NCBI RefSeq assembly: GCF_009914755.1
Contig: NC_060942.1
Reading direction: 5' to 3' (one strand)
Length of the DNA stretch: 64,000 nt
Source: the human T2T-CHM13v2.0 reference genome, Homo sapiens
Shown here: piece after piece, positions 10,551 to 60,258 of the stretch
How the letters are laid out: each line of letters opens with the position of its first letter
How positions within the stretch are numbered: the stretch's first letter is position 1
Translations under genes and position numbers: made by a program
The notes under the pieces: model-generated
Database searches by the model: none
What the model was told of the DNA's origin: nothing
The model's input: only the letters and a program-made list of their open reading frames with translations

Positions 10551-11233
10551 TCAGGTCATAGCTGTTAAAATCAGAGTCCAGATATTGGCATTAGTGTCTG
10601 GAAGAAAAACATTTTAGGGATTTTATCAATTGAAGGTCAAACAGTAGAAATCCAAACCTGTGGTCAATGTTAGTAAGTTTTCACAGGCAGCTTAAAACAT
10701 AGCAATGCCAACACAATTTTATATATATATAAACTTTTCCATATATAGTGTATATATATATAATTGTATATGTACATATAGCATATATGTATACATATAG
10801 AAAATTAAAGTGTATGTCTATACAGGTATATACATACATTAATTAGCAAGCTATATTTTTCATTTTAAAAACCATTTCAGTCACTGCCTCTCAAGCAAAG
10901 TAGAAATGTTGGTATTAACAGACATCCCTAGTGTCCTTAAAATCATATTTGCTATGCTCTTACCTTCTTCATCTCTTCAGAATTCTAACCCTGCCTTGTA
11001 AGTTGTAGGACATAGCACTTTCTGAATATTAAGGACTGCAAACTGCTTAGGTGGCCTGAAGGAAACTAATAAGTGAATGAAGTTAGCCAAATAACAGATT
11101 TTGCTGAAGGTGCCTGTGAGATCTGTTACAGACATTGACCACATGCTTGGATTTCTACTGTTTGACCTTCAGTTGATAAAAACCCCTGGTTTTCTTCCAG
11201 ACACTGATGCCAACAACAGGACTCTGATTTTTA

Positions 11234-25180: not shown

Positions 25181-25882
25181 TACAGGTCCATATGCAGGAA
25201 TACAAAATTATGAAAAAATACAAAATTTGCAGAGAATCAAAATGGAAGCTTTTTCTTAACACATTCTGTATCTGAACCTGACCTGACCTCATGCTAGGCT
25301 ATTCATAGTCTCTAATGAGCCCATTTGGCATGAATATCATATGCTTTACTGCAAATATGTAGTTACATTTGATTAACAATGTAAACAATTTGATATGAGT
25401 ATCATATGCTTTACTGCAAATATATAGTTACATTTGATTAACAGGGTGCTACTACAGACCCCATTAGGGAAAAAAGAAAAAAAAAACCCTGCACAGATAC
25501 TATGTTACTTTTCTAAAATCTGAAAGTTTCAAAATCTTAAGATACCTGGGCTGGGTGTGGTGTCTCACACCTGTAATCCCAGCACTTCGGGATGCCAAGG
25601 CAGGAGGATCGCTTGCCAGGAGTTCAAGACTGTCCTGGGCAACAACATAGTGAGACCCAGTATCTACAAAAAATAAAAATAAAAAAATAACTGGTCATGA
25701 TGGTGCATGCTTGTAGTCCTACCTATTCAGGAAGCTGAGACAGGAGGATTGCTTGACCCCAGGAGTTCAAGGTTGCAGTGAGATGTGATCATGCCACTGC
25801 ACTCCAGCCTGAGAAACAGAGCAAGACTCTGTTTCTGGAAAAAAAAAAAAAAAGTGTTTTAGGTAAACGATTGTGGATCTGT
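25181..25882. mobile_element. MER46C-like Tigger element interrupted by an AluJ
   Basis: Termini tacaggtcca.../...gattgtggatctgt; internal ctgacctga, tttgatta..agggtgct, ctttctaaaatc. Confidence 0.55.
25549..25853 (+). mobile_element. AluJ-like
   Basis: ggcaggaggatcgcttg, gtgagaccc, ggaggattgcttgacccc; poly(A) tail. Confidence 0.92.
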
Positions 25883-39468: not shown

Positions 39469-40432
39469 AATTCATGAATTTTTTACGTAATTTATTTTAC
39501 TTGGGATTTTAAGATGGAAGAGAACACACTTTGAAAACGTATTCTATATCATATTTGTAAATATAGAGCACAATTGATTTTTTTATTGATAGTAAATGAA
39601 ATAACTTGGTGCAACTAACATTTTTGCAGAAAGATTATTAGGATCTCTGTACATAAAACTGAGGGGTTGTTATAAGACATATGATCACAATCTAGGTACT
39701 CGTTAAGGTTTTGGTCACCCGTAAGCCAGTTGGACCCAGAAATCATGTTCCATAATAATTAAGCAGAGAAGTCTTTACACATCTAGATAATGGAACTAAG
39801 AACAAAATTCTCTTACTGTATCATTCTTGAAAACCCAGTATGGTAGAATATTTTTACAAAGCTGTAATAGCAGAACAGATTAGATTCCTTTTCTACAAGC
39901 TAACTATGAACACAAGTTTTTTGTTGTACTAATGGCTTGACTTACACATGTTACATGTCAGGTGAAACTGGGTCATAGTGAGGTGGTTATTTCTCATACT
40001 AAAATTTTGTTACAAGAAATAGTATCTTTTCCAGAAAAAGATAATGGTTTATGAAATGGACTTTAAAATGTTACGTTTTATTAGGAAAACTTTTTATAAG
40101 AATAATTTCCTTAAGAATTTAATTTGAAATTCAATTATTATTCAATTATTATTGATTCAGTTATTATATATTTCAAATACATACTACAACTTAATTAGTT
40201 GGCTGGAACATAAAGGATACATTTACAGAATGCAGAGAGCTAATGTTGGGGCACAAATATTAATACTTCCCTATGTTTCAATCTAAAAGTTCTGATGAGT
40301 AATAATGTTTAGAGGATGATAGAATTCAAGTTGCTTGGGTCCTTTTATTAACTCTTTGAACCTGTGAAAAGTCACGTGTCTCAGTTTTATTTATTCAACA
40401 CTTACTCTGTACCTGTTTTAATGTCATACATA

Positions 40433-40629
40433 ATAAGGAATGTGATCTAGAATTTGCCTTCATGCAGCTCACAGTTGGGTAGGAAAACGTGAAAGAACAT
40501 TCACTGTTCCTCTAGCCACTTTAATCTGTTGAACCTTTCAAAGTTGACATTATTTTCTCATTTTAAAATGAGAGAGCTGGATAGAGAATCTCTAAAATCT
40601 CCTGTGGCTTCAAACATCTGTGCCTGTGT
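40433..40629 (+). repeat. Left arm of ~200-bp inverted repeat (partner 42657-42856)
   Basis: Reverse complement of 42657-42856 aligns colinearly; about 89% identity by hand. Confidence 0.92.
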
Positions 40630-42437
40630 TTCTAACCATTATACCTTTTCTCAACCATTTTACTGTTAAAGAATTAGCGAAAACACAAATCAATTTCAGT
40701 ATACCAGTCAACTCACTAGTTCAGATATATATTGACTGAGCACTACAGAGTGATTGCAAGGAATGAAGTATTAACTCCCCTTTCCCCCCAAAACCCCAGT
40801 ATATTATGAGGCATAGATCATTGTTCAGATTTAAATTTTTAAATGCAAATTGATGGATTCCTCTCATTATATCACCTCACACCTCTCTGCTGTTGAAATC
40901 CTTATTCTTGAACACCAGATGCATCTATGTGAATGTCTTTTTGTTGCATTCCTAAAAGCTGGTACTCAGTCACTCACAATCTGATATTGTACATGGTGCC
41001 TTCAAAGCAACCGAAGAAAAAGTTTCTAGTGCCTTCCTACGTCTTAAAGTGTCTCACTCTCCCTTGTTTCAGCACAACTTGGCATGCTTAAATAACTCAA
41101 GCCTGAGTTCAGCAATCATATGATTTCCTTTATGCAAAAACTATACAGTAGGAGAACAGCAAGTTTCTACTCTGCAAAGCAAACTGATCATTTTTAACAG
41201 ATATTTTAACATTCTTTGTGTGTGTTTGTGTGTAACAAGACAGAGGAAATCTAAGTGTATTATGGGATAACTGCAGAAGGACATGCTTTTGAGGATGTGG
41301 TGCAACTTGTTGGATTTTGATGGAAGTCTCTATACCCTGTCATTGGGCTGGTGTTGCTTCTCTTATTAGCCAAGTCCATAGCCAAGTGGGTGGCTGAGTG
41401 AGTCATTTGCATATGACTCCTAGTGGGAAGGGAGGAGATGGGGAAAAGCTGGAGGCAAGGAAAAAATGTGAGTTATGATATTAAATTGCAGATCCTCTGT
41501 GTCTGGGGTATGTGTATGTGTGTATTCAGTTTTGTTTTGTTTTTTTCTGAAATTGGGGTTATCTTCTCTTGGTTATTCAGAAGGGGTTTCAGTTCACACA
41601 CCTCCCTGCTGCGTGACAATCTCTCTGAAAACATACTTTTAGAAAAGGGGTCTGGACCCACTTCTCTGCTTTCACCATTCTTCTAGTCAACGTTCATTTC
41701 TCTCCTGTATGTTGTATGGAGTCATAGGCCTCAGGCAGCCCATGGAAAAACATGCTTCTTCATGTCTCCCTAAGTCCTTTATAAAATACACTTTGGCTGC
41801 TGAGTTCCTGGACCCAGAGCTCTGAGCCCTCTCCTCACAAATGTAGTAGGTTTAAAAAATGGATTTAGTGAAGAGAAAGAGGATATATATGAGACTGCAG
41901 ATGATTGTATTTATTTAAAGATAAACTAGAACCAGCATTTGCTTATTAATGAACAATTTAAATACAACAATGTTGACTCTCACAAGCTTAACAATGACAC
42001 TTGTCCTCAATCATAACACAGAGCATTTCTGCCTGAGCATAGTATTTGCCCTAGTTATCCATCCATTTAATTCAAGTAGGTGTAGATCTCTTATATTTAT
42101 TTTAGTTATTGATTCCTTCATCTATTCATTACATGGTGATTTTTAAGCATAGATAATGTCCAGGGGCCTATGATTGAAAGTTTTAGGAAGGGTGGGGAGT
42201 AGGAGCATAATTGTAAGGAAGGCAATATTTCCTGGGGGCTCTTACAGTCTAGTCTTTCTGTTTGGAATTTGTAGGAAAGACTAGACTGGATATAAATGAT
42301 TATATTACATAAGAATCAGATAATTTGTAAGAATCTGTGAGACTCCCTTAAGGATAAGATTGTGTTTGGTCTATAATTTGGGTAGAACTCATCTTCAGAT
42401 CTCTTCCATCCTGTCTTTTTACTTAATAGATCCTTTT

Positions 42438-42975
42438 TTATTGTGGTGAAACAACTTTATATAAAATTTACCATTTTTTAATTTAATTTAATTTTTTAAA
42501 TTAAATACAAATTTAAGCATTTGTAAATGTGCAGTTTAAATGTGGTAAGTACATTCACATTGTTGTACATCTATCACCAGCTTCCATCTCTAGAATATTT
42601 TCCATCTTCCCAAACTAAAACTTAGTATCTATTCACCAGTAAGTCCCCATTTCCCCACACAGTCATAGATGTTTGAAGCCACGAGATTTTAGACATTCTC
42701 TATCCAGCCGTCTCATTTTATCAATGAGAAAATAATGTCAACTTTGAAAGGCTGCAACAGATTAAGTGTGGCTAGATGAAAAGTGAACGTTCTTTCACAT
42801 GTTTTCTTACCCAACTGTGAGCTCCATGAAGGCAAATTCTGGATCACATTCCTTATGTGGGAATGTGAGAGAAAATGGGGAGTTATTGGTGAATAGATAC
42901 TAAGTTTTAGTTTGGGAAGATGAGTTCTACCCAATTACAGAATCCCTGGCAACGACTATTTTACTTTTTGTATCC
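42438..42975 (-). mobile_element. L1MB-like 3' fragment split by an inserted inverted-duplication block (42657-42922)
   Basis: ataaaatttaccatttt...agtacattcacattgttgt...ttccatcttcccaaac; resumes as ccctggcaacgactattttacttt after 42930. Confidence 0.7.
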
Positions 42976-43571
42976 CAACTTACTTTATAAATGAGCAAAG
43001 AAACCAATTCATAAAAAAATTAATTTCCCTTTTGCTTCATTTAATTGAGAAATAAAACAGTTTTCCATTTTTAGATCCCCTTTCTTATAGAGAAATGAAA
43101 AACTTAATGAATCAGTGGTCAAGAATACAGACAGATGCTTTAATTGGCTAGGAAGAGATGCCTCACTTCCCATTATTGTCAGTGCTTTCAGAATACTTCT
43201 GTTCCAAAATTCCACATTTATAAATTGTTTTTAGAAAATCTGCTGAAAAAGCCAACTGTCATATTTAATAAGAGGAAACCAGAAACATAAACATAGGATT
43301 GTTCCAAAGAAACTGTAAAAGACATAATTTTGTCTCATATTCCATCAGAATTTAGACCAGAGCTCCTGACCAGTTGCTAAATTGATTCTTAGACTTTTTT
43401 TGAAGTTCCAAAAACTCAACAGTTTACGTCTTTTTTCAGTGAAATTACAGTCAATGAATAAAGATCAACCATGAATTAGAGGAATAATAAAATAGTAAAT
43501 TATTGGATAACTAGTTTTTAAACAACATAAATGCATCATTCCAACTTAACTGCTTTCTGTAATTAAGTTGA

Positions 43572-47330: not shown

Positions 47331-48236
47331 AAGGCCAGTGGGCTGCATTATTATCCCAATTTTACAGAGAGAACACTGAGGCTTAGAGAGATGAGATAAT
47401 ATGCCCCAGTGTCACACAGAGAAGGGCTGAGTAGCAGCACAGGGACTTGAGCCCCAGCCAGGGCTGTTGGTCATTTGGACACAATGTTTCGGATAGGGCC
47501 CAATGCTAAGGGAAGGGATGCAAATCAGAATACAAAAATAAGCCTTGCATTCAAGTGGCTTAGGTTCTCAGTGGGAATTTTTCCCAGACAAAGGTAAGGT
47601 CTAGATCAGCAGCTAGGAGACATCAGAACTGTTGGTGGAAACTGAAAGTTTTGGTTCTAAAATGTGCTGAGAAAGGAGAGCTAGAAGAGGAACCAAAATA
47701 ACACATTTCCCTGACTTTTCGGTTTTTTTCCTGTAGTGAACCTACATGGAAGATTCTGTACCTCAAGCTATGTATTTCTCCCCATGGGACTTAAAAAGCA
47801 CATCAGCGGGACAGCAGGTTTTTAAGAGAGCACAACTGATACCTCAATAAACTTCAGTAGACAAGCTTAAAAACTTAGGGTATTTTTGAATGTAATTCTG
47901 ACTTTTCTTCAATTCCAAGTTATATAATATATTTGTTATTAAAAGTTTTAAATGGGAAAATTGAGATCCACTGAAAAGGGCCTTACCTCATCCCTCAAGG
48001 GTTGTTGGCCAAAAAAACAAACAAACAAAACAAAAAACAAACAAAAAAGCCGACCTCTGATTATTTAGCAACAGAGTTCTGCAACCATTAGGAAATTTGT
48101 ATTAAATTCAGAGAAAATGCAAGTCATAAAACTGAGCATACATTTTATAATCAGTCATTATTAACTTAAATAGTAAATAAAACTAAACCAAATATATATT
48201 AGTTAAGTATAGAATAGATGTCAGATAATAGTGTAA

Positions 48237-48570
<334 letters not shown>

Positions 48571-50606
48571 AATCTGAGTATATTTTAAGATATAACTTCT
48601 TTAGATACTAAACTGAATCTGATATATTTTTATCTGGAAGTTATTTTAGTTTAATCTCATCAAATGTCCACCAGCATCATACAATCTTAATATATGTACT
48701 CAATAACACTCAACAATGAAACCCACTTATTTCATTTATTATGTTGTTCTTTCACATAGAAAATGATAGCCTCCATTAGTTTTCCAAAGCTGTTCAAAAC
48801 ATTACCCAGTCTACTGGAAAACTCTATGTAAAACTGACAGAATCTAAGAGCATCATCTTCACGTTTCCCTAGCATTTTGTATAAAGTGTATGTTGCATAC
48901 AAATGGATTTGTCAGATACATTGAGAAGTATGTTAATAGTAGGAAAAAGAAAGTATTAAGGAACAATTCTGTATCTTCAGAAAATTAACTTAAGAACATA
49001 TTATGTATCTAATCTTAATGCAACTGGTGGAAATTACCGTGTCTTCTACAAATAACTTTGTTCCAGGGTAAACAGTAAGAAATTTCACTTTCTTTTTTTT
49101 GTAGTAATGCAAGGTCCTCTTATCTAAACATTTCTCATCTTTCAGAGGAGTCTACTTGACAGACCATTTTGTGTTTTAGCTGAGAGGCAGTAGCTATTAA
49201 CTAGATTGCTGTCTATTTTATTTTTATGTGGATAAAGTTGAAGAGACTCACACAAAAGGGATTTATATGTCAAGAAATGCCTTATACTAACTTTAAACAA
49301 AATTGATATCTTTTTAAAATATGAAGCTGACTGTAGATTTTTATCTTTTATGCATAGATAAGTCTAAATGTTGCAAAGAATATATATTTCCATGTCCATG
49401 ACTACAGTATCAACATGTATTTCTCTAGAGATGCCTATATTTCAATATTTCCAAGTTGGGTTTTGTTTTCTTATACTTCAAAGAAAGGAAAATACATTTG
49501 TGTTTCTTTTCAATGCCAATACAGATAATTCCCTTGATGAAATCAAATATAATGGCATTTAAAGAAAACGTTGTTAGTAAAAAAATAAAAATAAAAAATA
49601 AAAAATCCAGATGCTCTCTTAATTTGGAAGGTTTATCAGAGAAAAGTCAATGAAGAATTTAAAGGTTATTTCCGTTACAATCTTGGATTATTTCTTTCAT
49701 TAATTAGTTTGTTTGTTTAATGATAAATATTCATTGAATATATGCTGTGTAGGAGTCACTTTCTAAACACTTCAGCTCCGTAAGAGTCTTCCAAATTATT
49801 TGTCAGCCAAAAAACCTCAGCACTTCTATGAATGTCAGCAATCAGTGAGCAACTGGCATATGATAACACCTGGGCTTGCGTAGAGTTTCTGCTCTTCCAT
49901 GGGGAATTAACTTCTCTACCTATGATAAAGGTAGCAGACACTTTCCCCTTGTCTGTCATTTAGAGAAGGTTGGGCATTTTCTGACTATACTTAACTTTGA
50001 TAATAGTCAAGGATTTCGGGGTTTATGAGATAAGAGGTCTATGAAGCTGAACCTTGGAGAAAGGAAAAGTTGAGGGGCCCCAATTAAAGTTCTCAAACTT
50101 TAAGGAACATAACAATACCTTAAACCAGTTACTTGTTTAAAATGCCAAAGATTTTTCCCTATTCCCCTAACACACACTCTTCTAGTGCATTATTAGTTGC
50201 AGTGTTATCTGACATTTCTTCTATACTTAACTAATTTATGTTCAATTGTTTTATATTTCTTTATTATTTAAATTAATAATGCTTGGTTGAAAATGTATGT
50301 CCAGCATTATGACTTGTATTTTCTCTGAGTATAATATACATTTCCTAATGGTTCCAGACCACTGTTGCTACTTCTGATTCAGTAGGTCTTTAAGCCAGAA
50401 ACTTAGTGTTTTCAAATTGTAGTCCAAATAGTATAAAGGGAGATGATCTACAGATCCCACTATAATAAAGTCTAATTAAATAAAAGGTTTTCACACTTTT
50501 GTAATGGAATAAAATCTTTTAAAAACAAAGATTTATGTGACATCCTGGTATAATATGCAAAGGCAAAGTTATGCAAAAACACAGATTGGTCTCCTTGGGA
50601 TGAGGG

Positions 50607-58516: not shown

Positions 58517-60258
58517 TAGCTCATTAGATTGTCCTTCACAGTTAAACAATGCAAAGCCTATAGAAGAACATTATGCTAAATATGTGGGTGTGTGGGTGAC
58601 TGAGATAAAATAGAAAAAAAGGCTAAATGTTTTTGGGGTACCTGCTATCTGCCAGTATTCTGCAAAGTGTTTTATATATCTTGGCATATTTGAATTTAAT
58701 TTTCACAAAAATTCTGTGAAGTAGTTATTGTCTCCATTAGTGGATGAACAAAGTAAGGGTTAGAGAAGTAATTTGTTCAAAATATTTAACTCGAATTCCT
58801 TTCATCTTTGATGGTCACAGCCAATCAGTAGTCATATTGAGTGCTCATGCAGGGTGCCTGCTTTGTGGTTGACAGCTGGATTTTCAGCTAGTGACAGGTT
58901 TGCTATATTAACCTAGTCAGTTGTCACACTGACTAAACATACAATTTAGAGCGTAGTTTTAATAATTCTGTGACAACTCAGTATACCTTCCATAAAAAAA
59001 TGCATCTAAAAGTACATTATTTATAAGTGAGTTCTTGTGAAAGAAATCAAATTATAATTCCCATTGTTTTACAAAATCATTATTGAGTATACAAAGTTAA
59101 ATAAAAATAACATTTATTTCATCAAAAAATGTCTGACAAACCGAGCTGCTGGCATTAAGCATTACTAGTTGTGAAATTATGTGTTAGTCACAAAATCAAT
59201 TTAAATAAACAACTAGATTATCATCTTGCCACCCCTGAAAACAAAGACCTTAGCACAGAATCAGATTTAATCTTCAAATCTATTACTTACCAAGAAAACC
59301 TAAGAACACAATTTGTTTGAAACCTTTAAACCTATTACTTTCTAAAAGAATCTCATGGAGCACTGTGCTTGACCTTCACAGGATAAACTTTGTAGATGTC
59401 AGGGGTTCAAAGCAATTTGTTTCTTATATTCCTTGAATTTATCTACTATATGTTGCTGATTATTTCCTTCATGACAGCTGTTTTTACTTATGACACACAG
59501 AAATGCATTACATTTTGGAGAATTGCACTTGATTCTACTCTTCCAATAGATATTCTAATTTATTATCTGATACGTAGTGTTGGGTTCTAGGTGAATCATG
59601 ACTCCTAGAATTATTCAATGTGAACACTTTATTGATGATAGATGTTACATTAACATATGGTAGTTGTGTTCCATAAGACTGTAACTATTTTAGAAATATG
59701 TTCACAATGAGACATTAATCTTTTAGTTATGCATATTAATCCTTATAAAGTTTTATGATATACACAGAATTGAAATATTTCCATTTTCATTTAAGATGAA
59801 GAAACAAAGAATCAGAGATATTGATATTTGTCCAAGCACTCACACATTTCAGGGGTCCCTTTTTCTTATAAGCTTTTTGTGTCCAAGCTCTTATAAGCCT
59901 TATGTGTCCAAGCTCTCACACATTTCAGGGGTCCCTTTACTTAGAAGCCTTATAATACTAGTAAACACTGAAAATGTAAAGATATATGAGAAGTATGAGA
60001 AGTATCATTGCAACTAAGGAACTCAGAGCCTAGAGGACTGAGACAAGCAGCCAAACATGTAAAAGTGAAATTGAAAAATGCTGTCATACAGGTATACTAA
60101 GAGGAGAGGAGAACCTCATTGTATGGGTAAATTTTCCTACATAAAGTGAACCCAGAGCAATCAGACAGCTAATATTTATTGAAAGGAACAATGTCTGTTA
60201 TGTGTCATGTAAATTAGCCATACCTAGTATTATTTAACCTTCACAAAACTCCAGCAAA

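What the first reader, a model, noticed from the sequence alone, without database searches (positions are those of the whole stretch)
42603..42930. Fossil multi-step template-switch insertion (FoSTeS/MMBIR or Pol-theta-like) inside an L1
Seen: an antisense L1MB-like fragment is interrupted at ~42656 by three pieces. First, an inverted copy (42657-42856) of sequence 2 kb upstream (40433-40629). Second, a 9-bp snap-back, tcacattcc-ttatgtg-ggaatgtga (42844-42868). Third, an inverted copy (42873-42922) of the 50 bp just before the break (42603-42652; 48/50 identical, 36-bp perfect core). L1-like sequence then resumes. Established: serial locally templated inverted inserts with fold-back junctions are the signature of template switching or theta-mediated end joining. 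Inference: one germline repair event, old enough for ~10% divergence, which repeat masking would fragment and hide.
Basis: partly seen in the sequence, partly recalled or inferred. Interest (0 to 1): 0.75.

Follow-up and report, generated by a model that had tools for sequence, protein, structure and literature searches.

The report
Old patchwork repair scar in DCC
A 280-base patch stitched from three back-to-front copies of nearby DNA sits inside an old L1 repeat in a DCC intron; it is a well-preserved but ordinary scar of error-prone DNA copying from tens of millions of years ago.

Summary
An antisense L1 3' fragment (about 42435-42662, resuming at about 42941) is split by a ~280-bp insert built only from inverted copies of + strand DNA to its left.

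- **C'** (42657-42856) copies 40433-40629: 89.6% over 202 columns, E 2e-69.
- **Filler**: 12 nt, including a 9-nt snap-back.
- **B'** (42861-42922) copies 42603-42664: 56 of 62.
- **A'** (42916-42941) copies 42370-42396, which is unique flank outside the L1. It has a 19/19 exact core.

Junction microhomologies are 6, about 4, 7 and 3-5 nt.

The 200-bp piece has only two places in the whole assembly, so it is not a repeat family. B and B' share four derived bases that are rare in 19 other L1 copies, so B' came from the local B. Divergence is uniform across the pieces (19 of 268 substitutions), giving roughly 17-37 My.

Best reading: one event of serial microhomology-primed template switching, probably replicative (FoSTeS/MMBIR type). 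Pol-theta snap-back end joining is the main rival. Whether it was a single event needs primate orthologues, which I could not reach. It is a new member of a known kind. Two further unique local inverted duplications lie in the same window.

The parts
40433..40629 (+). C: source (template) of the first and longest inserted piece; unique sequence 2.0-2.2 kb left of the break
   Evidence: Own-genome search of 40300-40760 finds only itself and 42657-42856.
42370..42396 (+). A: source of the third inserted piece; unique flank 40-65 nt outside the L1 poly(A) end
   Evidence: 19/19 exact core. 42300-42460 has 1 place in the genome. The L1 end is at the T-run 42435-42440.
42397..42602 (+). X: 206 nt skipped between templates A and B, bounded by the 7-nt direct repeat CATCTTC (42390-42396 and 42603-42609)
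   Evidence: X and B are contiguous in other L1 copies.
42435..42662 (-). Left part of the old L1 3' fragment (element on the - strand; poly(A) read as T-run at 42435-42440)
   Evidence: 40 of 40 scored genome matches are 74-83% identical L1-like copies, apart from self. 8 of 12 copies shown share the end at a T-run.
42603..42664 (+). B: source of the second inserted piece, the last 62 nt before the break
42657..42662 (.). Junction 1: 6-nt microhomology ACACAG shared by the L1 end and the start of C'
42657..42856 (+). C': inverted copy of 40433-40629
   Evidence: 89.6%/202 columns, E 2e-69; 181/195; 2 places genome-wide.
42857..42868 (+). Junction 2 filler; 42860-42868 is the exact reverse complement of 42844-42852 (9-nt snap-back, 7-nt loop); its TGTG overlaps the start of B'
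42861..42922 (+). B': inverted copy of 42603-42664 (firm from 42869)
   Evidence: 56/62; four shared derived bases at 42624, 42630, 42634, 42636, each in at most 2 of 19 other copies.
42916..42922 (.). Junction 3: 7-nt microhomology GAAGATG shared by the end of B' and the start of A'
42916..42941 (+).
42937..42941 (.). Junction 4: 3-nt (AGA) to 5-nt microhomology with the resuming L1; ACAG here repeats ACAG at 42659-42662
42941..42975 (-). Right part of the L1 fragment, colinear continuation
   Evidence: other copies run straight through; 15 of 16 copies align from 42941-42950 at the colinear offset; 5 of 16 had 0 of 200 shuffles as good.

Best explanation
This is one old germline event of serial, microhomology-primed template switching.

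A growing or broken + strand 3' end stopped at 42662 inside an antisense L1. It then copied three stretches of the + strand lying behind it:
- It annealed by ACACAG at 40624-40629 and copied about 200 nt leftwards, making C'.
- It came off and made a 9-nt snap-back on itself.
- It re-annealed by TGTG at the very end of the L1 stub and copied 54-62 nt, making B'.
- It slipped 206 nt further left through a 7-nt match and copied 20-27 nt of unique flank, making A'.
- It returned to its proper template through 3-5 nt of match.

Almost no original sequence was lost.

I favour a replicative route: the leading-strand end switching to the lagging-strand template or the sister chromatid, of FoSTeS/MMBIR type.

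Shown: the pieces, their sources, their orientation, the junction overlaps, the low copy number, and the equal divergence.

Inferred: that it was one event, the order of the steps, and the enzymes involved.
For: - **Pieces and sources**.
- **Geometry**: all 3 of 3 templates are inverted and lie on the same side within 2.3 kb.
- **Junction overlaps**: 6, about 4, 7 and 3-5 nt.
- **C' is not a repeat family**: 2 places in the genome.
- **B' derives from the local B**: four derived bases are shared by B and B' but seen in at most 2 of 19 other copies.
- **A is unique flank**.
- **Equal divergence**: 14/195, 4/54 and 1/19 substitutions; Fisher p = 1.0 for C vs B; pooled 19/268.
- **The L1 runs straight through in other copies**.
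- **For a replicative route rather than end joining**: about 0-3 nt of L1 were lost and 4 nt are duplicated at the site. One piece is 200 nt long, from 2 kb away. Templates of theta-mediated joining peak within 20 bp of the break (PMC11541566, passages read).
Against: - No outgroup or empty-site allele was available, so a single event is not shown.
- The divergence estimates have wide errors: B 0.078 +/- 0.040 and A 0.055 +/- 0.055.
- Every feature used is also predicted by a resected 3' tail folding back on itself. This includes all templates lying on one side, all being inverted, and B' starting exactly at the break.
- Junction 2 has 7-12 nt that are not cleanly assigned. The first ~10 nt of B' are only 6 of 10 matched.
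- Microhomologies are read from sequences that have since diverged by about 7%.
- Gene conversion between the arms could make the pieces look equally young.
Confidence: 0.55

Rival explanations
1. A double-strand break in the L1 was repaired by Pol-theta / synthesis-dependent microhomology-mediated end joining. After resection, the left 3' tail folded back on its own strand several times. First it made a 2-kb loop, then a 9-nt hairpin, then folded onto the stub end. It copied a piece each time until it could pair with the right end.
For: - All templates lie on the resectable left side and all are inverted.
- B' starts exactly at the break end, so B-C'-B' is a hairpin. The DNA fold is -75.9 kcal/mol against -30.8 +/- 4 for shuffles, with 0 of 100 shuffles as good.
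- There is a 9-nt snap-back.
- Iterative snap-back rounds are part of the SD-MMEJ and TMEJ models (PMC2943611 and PMC4032859, passages read).
Against: - A 200-nt piece templated 2 kb away is far outside the usual range. Templates peak within 20 bp of the break (PMC11541566, passages).
- Insertions in those papers are short.
- No deletion accompanies the joint.
Confidence: 0.25
2. There were two or more separate events. For example, a template switch first made a spacer-less palindrome B|B'A'. That unstable palindrome later broke at its centre and was mended with the C' filler.
For: - The first ~10 nt of B' next to the centre are poorly matched, 6 of 10, as if the centre had been reworked.
- The errors on divergence allow differences in age of many millions of years.
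Against: - The divergence of the pieces is indistinguishable.
- Each junction abuts the next with overlaps.
- It needs more steps.
Confidence: 0.13
3. The templates were RNA. The nascent DCC pre-mRNA (+ sense) tethered at the break was reverse-transcribed in three jumps and the cDNA filled the gap.
For: - 3 of 3 pieces are antisense to the DCC transcript.
- All three come from the same intron, upstream of the break. That is the only part a nascent transcript would contain (and the hub gene table).
Against: - DNA models predict the same geometry.
- No feature specific to RNA, such as a splice junction or a poly(A), is present.
- Low DCC expression in the germ line is recalled, not tested.
Confidence: 0.04
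4. There was no local copying. The pieces are independent members of repeat families, or chance matches.
For: B' also matches other L1 copies at 80-88% over 46-65 nt.
Against: - E values are 2e-69 and 6e-19.
- C' has only 2 places genome-wide.
- B and B' share four derived bases.
- A is unique and abuts B' exactly.
Confidence: 0.01

Closest known systems
MMBIR-type templated insertions (MMB-TI) in human germline and cancer genomes (Osia et al. 2021, PMC8421209; passages read)
   Same: These are inverted copies of nearby templates flanked by microhomologies. Complex germline events are copied from several templates, up to five, and do not lead to gross rearrangement.
   Different: Their search only takes templates within 100 bp and insertions no longer than a read. 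Here one piece is 200 nt from 2 kb away, the whole insert is about 280 bp, and the event is old and presumably fixed.
Short-range template-switch mutations, four-point model (Loytynoja & Goldman 2017, PMC5453318, listing only; Walker et al. 2021, PMC7954356; Loytynoja 2022, PMC9435742; passages read)
   Same: A reverse-complement copy of nearby sequence replaces or adds sequence and creates a hairpin-forming inverted repeat. The events are found as evolutionary differences among apes.
   Different: That model has one switch and one return. The median copied piece is 12 nt and the maximum 128 nt (PMC7954356). The longest pattern is 318 bp, with one case of two adjacent events (PMC9435742). Here there are three templates in series, one of them 2 kb away.
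Snap-back SD-MMEJ / theta-mediated end joining with templated insertions (PMC2943611, PMC4032859, PMC11541566; passages read)
   Same: A 3' end folds back on its own strand, primes at a few bases of match, copies, dissociates and tries again. The result is inverted repeats that span the junction.
   Different: Templates are usually within 20 bp of the break and inserts are short, often with a deletion. Here the pieces are 27-200 nt, lie up to 2.2 kb away, and there is no deletion.
FoSTeS / DUP-TRP/INV-DUP complex rearrangements at disease loci (introduction passage of PMC11541566; PMC11293582, listing only; the rest recalled)
   Same: Serial template switches occur with microhomology at several junctions in cis and produce inverted segments.
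   Different: Those involve kilobases to megabases and change copy number. This one is 280 bp.
L1 5' inversion by twin priming (recalled; mentioned in the abstract listing of 10.1101/2021.12.20.472354)
   Same: There is an inverted L1 segment inside an L1 insertion.
   Different: Twin priming gives one inverted L1 5' segment next to the target-site duplication. Here the inverted L1 piece lies between two sense-colinear L1 parts and is joined to two non-L1 pieces. The four shared derived bases also show the copy was made well after the L1 had inserted.

Membership tests
Complex templated insertion by replicative template switching (FoSTeS/MMBIR class) | Every inserted segment is a copy of sequence found elsewhere near the site | tested here: met
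   About 268 of about 280 nt are assigned to three local sources. 7-12 nt at junction 2 are filler or snap-back.
Complex templated insertion by replicative template switching (FoSTeS/MMBIR class) | Microhomology at the switch points | tested here: met
   6 nt, 7 nt and 3-5 nt at junctions 1, 3 and 4. About 4 nt after the filler at junction 2. These are read from present-day, diverged sequence.
Complex templated insertion by replicative template switching (FoSTeS/MMBIR class) | All junctions were formed in one event | tested here: inconclusive
   Equal divergence of the pieces is compatible with one event. No outgroup sequence was reachable.
Complex templated insertion by replicative template switching (FoSTeS/MMBIR class) | Arises at a stalled or collapsed replication fork | not testable with these tools
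   There is only circumstantial support. DCC is reported as fragile site FRA18B (PMC13564719, abstract and section 3.9 passages).
Theta-mediated end joining / SD-MMEJ | Templates lie in the immediate flanks of the break (tens of bp) | tested here: not met
   B is at 0-60 nt, but A is at 266-292 nt and C at 2.0-2.2 kb. The published peak is within 20 bp (PMC11541566).
Theta-mediated end joining / SD-MMEJ | Priming and resolving microhomologies flank the insert | tested here: met
Theta-mediated end joining / SD-MMEJ | Dependence on POLQ | not testable with these tools
   This is a fossil event.
Four-point short-range template-switch mutation | A single excursion: one switch out, one copied fragment, one return | tested here: not met
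   Three copied fragments from three places, plus a snap-back.
L1 twin-priming inversion | The inverted segment is L1 sequence only, at the 5' end of the insertion, made at integration | tested here: not met
   Two of the three pieces are not L1. The inverted L1 piece carries four mutations that the resident copy had acquired.
Dispersed repeat / DNA transposon with terminal inverted repeats | Multiple copies in the genome | tested here: not met
   C/C' has 2 places in 3.1 Gb. The search tool warns that its counts are lower bounds and that very diverged copies can be missed.

The most novel reading that the evidence does not exclude
The three pieces were reverse-transcribed from the nascent DCC pre-mRNA held at the break. 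That would make this a fossil of RNA-templated break repair in the primate germ line. All three pieces are antisense to the transcript and come only from the part of the intron upstream of the break, which is what a nascent transcript would offer. A less bold, more testable reading concerns the DCC/FRA18B intron itself. It may be a germline hot spot for such templated inverted insertions: 3 unique local inverted duplications in 64 kb here against 0 in 180 kb drawn at random. I put that hot-spot reading at about 0.2.
Probability: 0.04. Interest if true: 0.75.

Novelty: new member of a known kind. Interest (0 to 1): 0.3.

Why it matters
This is a clean, fully resolvable specimen of a multi-template inverted insertion. 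It has four junctions, three sources and almost no loss of original sequence. It sits in neutral intronic DNA of a very large fragile-site gene.

Such events are catalogued mostly as short, recent variants with templates within about 100 bp. This one shows that the same process can string together pieces of up to 200 nt from 2 kb away and become fixed.

It also built a 62-nt hairpin and a 200-nt long-range inverted repeat into the DCC pre-mRNA. I found no sign that either has a function: there were 0 Rfam matches.

Its main use is as a worked example, and as a prompt for a genome-wide scan of unique local inverted pairs against fragile sites.

Tried and rejected
1. I first read the L1 as sense on the + strand, from memory.
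2. B' as an independent L1 copy. Other copies match B' at 80-88%, so this was a real possibility. It was rejected on four shared derived bases.
3. A dispersed repeat or a transposon with inverted ends. Rejected: 2 places genome-wide.
4. L1 twin priming. Rejected (see membership test).
5. A known structured RNA. There were 0 Rfam matches at gathering score in 40000-43400.
6. Earlier findings of this scan.
7. Background rate of unique local inverted pairs. I drew 18 random 60-kb stretches and only 3 could be fetched.
8. The 21 L1-centred loci as extra background. Uninformative, because most pairs looked Alu-sized (about 300 nt) and no mask was available.
9. Primate orthologues. No tool here holds them.

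Full report
**What is there**

- **C'**: 42657-42856 is the reverse complement of C, 40433-40629. Identity is 89.6% over 202 columns, with 14 mismatches and 5 gap openings, E 2.0e-69.
- **B'**: 42861-42922 is the reverse complement of B, 42603-42664. Identity is 56 of 62, E 6.3e-19.
- **Core of B'**: That leaves the 36-nt perfect core 42603-42638.
- **Snap-back**: 42860-42868 is the exact reverse complement of 42844-42852, with a 7-nt loop.

With 25 nt of extra flank on each side, the C/C' homology stops sharply at 42657 and 42856.

**A fourth piece**

Searches also show that A', 42916-42941, is the reverse complement of A, 42370-42396. The core is 19/19 exact. Over 27 columns there is 1 mismatch and 1 gap, E 2.9e-4 in that search.

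A' overlaps the end of B' by 7 nt (GAAGATG, 42916-42922). The same 7 nt, read as CATCTTC, stand at 42390-42396 and at 42603-42609. So in the copy, A is joined directly to B, and the 206 nt that separate them in the original (42397-42602) are skipped.

**The host element**

Searching the assembly with 42300-42660 gave 909 first-look candidates. Of these, 40 were scored, and apart from self all were 74-83% identical matches covering about 42458-42659.

In window orientation, 8 of the 12 copies I printed end on the left at a T-run followed by the same start, with unrelated DNA beyond. That T-run is a poly(A) tail read backwards. I had first assumed the opposite from memory.

In other copies the sequence runs straight on from the stretch matching 42640-42662 into the stretch matching 42941 onward. 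In 15 of 16 copies, the best local alignment of the 100 nt right of the insert starts at 42941-42950, at the colinear offset of 6-21 nt. For 5 of the 16, none of 200 shuffles scored as well. For 10 of the 16, at most 10 of 200 did.

So about 280 bp (42663-42940) is an insertion into a once-continuous L1. At most about 3 nt of L1 are missing.

**Are the sources truly local?**

- **C/C'**: the assembly-wide search with C' found 2 candidates and 2 matches, itself and C. The search with 40300-40760 gave the same result. The tool warns that its counts are lower bounds and that very common words are skipped. Even so, a family with copies at 75-80% identity would have shown up, as the L1 did.
- **A**: it lies outside the L1 in sequence with a single place in the genome. 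The 27-nt A' is too short for that tool to find.
- **B'**: this was the weak point. Other L1 copies match it at 80-88% over 46-65 nt, not far below the 90% it shares with B. I aligned B, B' and 19 distinct other copies and counted states. B and B' agree at 56 of 62 columns. At four of these (42624, 42630, 42634, 42636) they share a base carried by only 1-2 of the 19 others. Two further shared states (42659, 42661) lie where the alignment is less sure, and two more fall in gap columns and say nothing.

B' was therefore copied from the resident B after that L1 had already acquired mutations. This also rules out an origin at L1 integration, such as twin priming.

**Junctions**

| Junction | Between | Finding |
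|---|---|---|
| J1 | L1 stub and C' | ACACAG (42657-42662) belongs both to the L1 stub and to the start of C' (6 nt). |
| J2 | C' and B' | C' ends at 42856 and firm B' homology starts at 42869-42873. The 12 nt between hold the 9-nt snap-back, whose TGTG also matches the stub end. The first ~10 nt of B' match only 6 of 10. |
| J3 | B' and A' | 7 nt (GAAGATG). |
| J4 | A' and resuming L1 | AGA is shared, or 5 nt with one mismatch. ACAG stands at both edges of the insert (42659-42662 and 42937-42940). |

These overlaps are read from sequences that have since diverged, so they are approximate.

If the last five bases of the snap-back are credited to B', only four extra bases need explaining. I therefore call the snap-back probable rather than certain. 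This is my estimate, not a computed test.

**Age**

| Piece | Substitutions | JC distance |
|---|---|---|
| C | 14 of 195 | 0.075 +/- 0.020 |
| B core | 4 of 54 | 0.078 +/- 0.040 |
| A outside the overlap | 1 of 19 | 0.055 +/- 0.055 |
| Pooled | 19 of 268 | 0.074 |

Fisher p is 1.0 for C against B. There are also 5 indel events in C and 1 in A.

With rates of 2.2e-9 to 1.0e-9 per site per year, this gives about 17-37 My. The rates are my knowledge, not a tool result. A slower rate would give more, and gene conversion between the arms would make the figure a minimum.

The pre-event and post-event mutation counts in B agree roughly: 4 shared derived against about 2 private on each arm. They place the event in about the last third of the L1's residence.

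**Mechanism**

All three templates lie on the + strand, to the left of the break, within 2.3 kb, and all are inverted. The simplest account has a + strand 3' end at 42662 using the + strand behind it as a template, in four steps:
- It primed at CTGTGT in C and copied about 200 nt.
- After a tiny snap-back, it primed on the stub end and copied B.
- It slid over 206 nt through the 7-nt match and copied A.
- It returned to its own template.

Two known routes give this result.
- **Replicative (FoSTeS/MMBIR)**: the leading-strand end switches to the lagging-strand template or to the sister chromatid.
- **End joining (SD-MMEJ/TMEJ)**: a resected 3' tail at a double-strand break folds back on itself.

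The B-C'-B' hairpin is strong. As DNA it folds at -75.9 kcal/mol, against -30.8 +/- 4 for shuffles, and 0 of 100 shuffles folded as well. Either route predicts this.

I lean to the replicative route (0.55 against 0.25) for three reasons:
- A 4-nt repeat flanks the insert.
- A 200-nt piece from 2 kb is far from the usual theta-mediated pattern, in which templates peak within 20 bp of the break (PMC11541566, passages).

A two-step history cannot be excluded without outgroups. In that history a spacer-less palindrome forms first and its centre is later mended with C'.

An RNA template, the nascent DCC pre-mRNA, fits the geometry equally well but has no specific support.

**Comparison with what is known**

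[quoted passage not shown] The search behind them was limited to templates within 100 bp (PMC8421209, passages).
- Short-range template switches among great apes have a median copied length of 12 nt and a maximum of 128 nt (PMC7954356, passages).
- In human haplotypes the longest pattern was 318 bp, and one case showed two adjacent events (PMC9435742, passages).
- The snap-back model, with repeated rounds, is set out in PMC2943611 and PMC4032859 (passages).

The present case belongs to this kind. It stands out only by the length and distance of its first piece, by having three templates, and by its age and preservation. I made four literature searches. None concerned this locus specifically, so I make no claim about whether this exact insertion is in print.

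**Noticed beside it**

A self-comparison of the whole window listed 22 inverted pairs within 5 kb. Apart from the two of this finding, most are about 300-nt pairs at 66-84% identity lying in masked repeats.

Two others are different:
- 10567-10693 against 11107-11231: 83.7% over 129 columns, 414 nt apart.
- 48066-48238 against 50195-50370: 80.8% over 177 columns, 1957 nt apart.

Each has only 2 places in the assembly. In each pair, one copy is flanked by dinucleotide microsatellites.

The filter was at least 60 nt, at least 80% identity, at most 5 kb apart, and no other hit in the pooled sample.

| Sample | Low-copy inverted pairs | Low-copy direct pairs |
|---|---|---|
| DCC window (64 kb) | 2, plus the 10567 pair (one stray hit, but unique) | 0 |
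| Background (180 kb) | 0 (26 inverted pairs listed, all with at least 57 other hits) | 5 |

By my own arithmetic, three of three falling in 64 of 244 kb has a chance of about 0.018. Leaving out the pair that drew attention to the window, the chance is about 0.07. That is suggestive only.

DCC is reported as the aphidicolin-sensitive fragile site FRA18B (PMC13564719, abstract and section 3.9 passages), which makes a hot-spot reading worth testing.

**Verdict**

The finding is a new member of a known kind, of modest interest.

Noticed in passing
window 10567-10693 and 11107-11231: A unique-sequence local inverted duplication: 83.7% over 129 columns, 414 nt apart, with only 2 places in the assembly. 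The left copy sits between (TG/TA)n microsatellites. The right copy abuts the poly-T end of an Alu-like repeat at about 11231.
   Followed up: partly
window 48066-48238 and 50195-50370: A unique-sequence local inverted duplication: 80.8% over 177 columns, 1957 nt apart, with only 2 places in the assembly. The left copy is followed by a (GT)n(TA)n microsatellite. It is older than the finding's event.
   Followed up: partly
whole window against three random 60-kb stretches (L027-L044): The DCC window has 3 low-copy local inverted pairs in 64 kb, against 0 in 180 kb of background. It has 0 low-copy local direct pairs, against 5 in the background. The sample is too small to conclude anything. DCC is reported as fragile site FRA18B.
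   Followed up: partly
window 25323-25378 / 25388-25443 and 59825-59876 / 59901-59951: Two short tandem direct duplications, 92.9% over 56 columns and 88.5% over 52 columns.
   Followed up: no
window 42470-42512: An AT-rich near-palindromic run inside the L1 tail region, absent from other L1 copies at that position. It looks like a local expansion or insertion.
   Followed up: no
window 42595-42945: The event built a 62-nt imperfect hairpin with a 196-nt loop, and a 200-nt inverted repeat 2 kb apart. Both are transcribed within the DCC intron. There were no Rfam matches. Double-stranded RNA or RNA editing potential was not examined.
   Followed up: no
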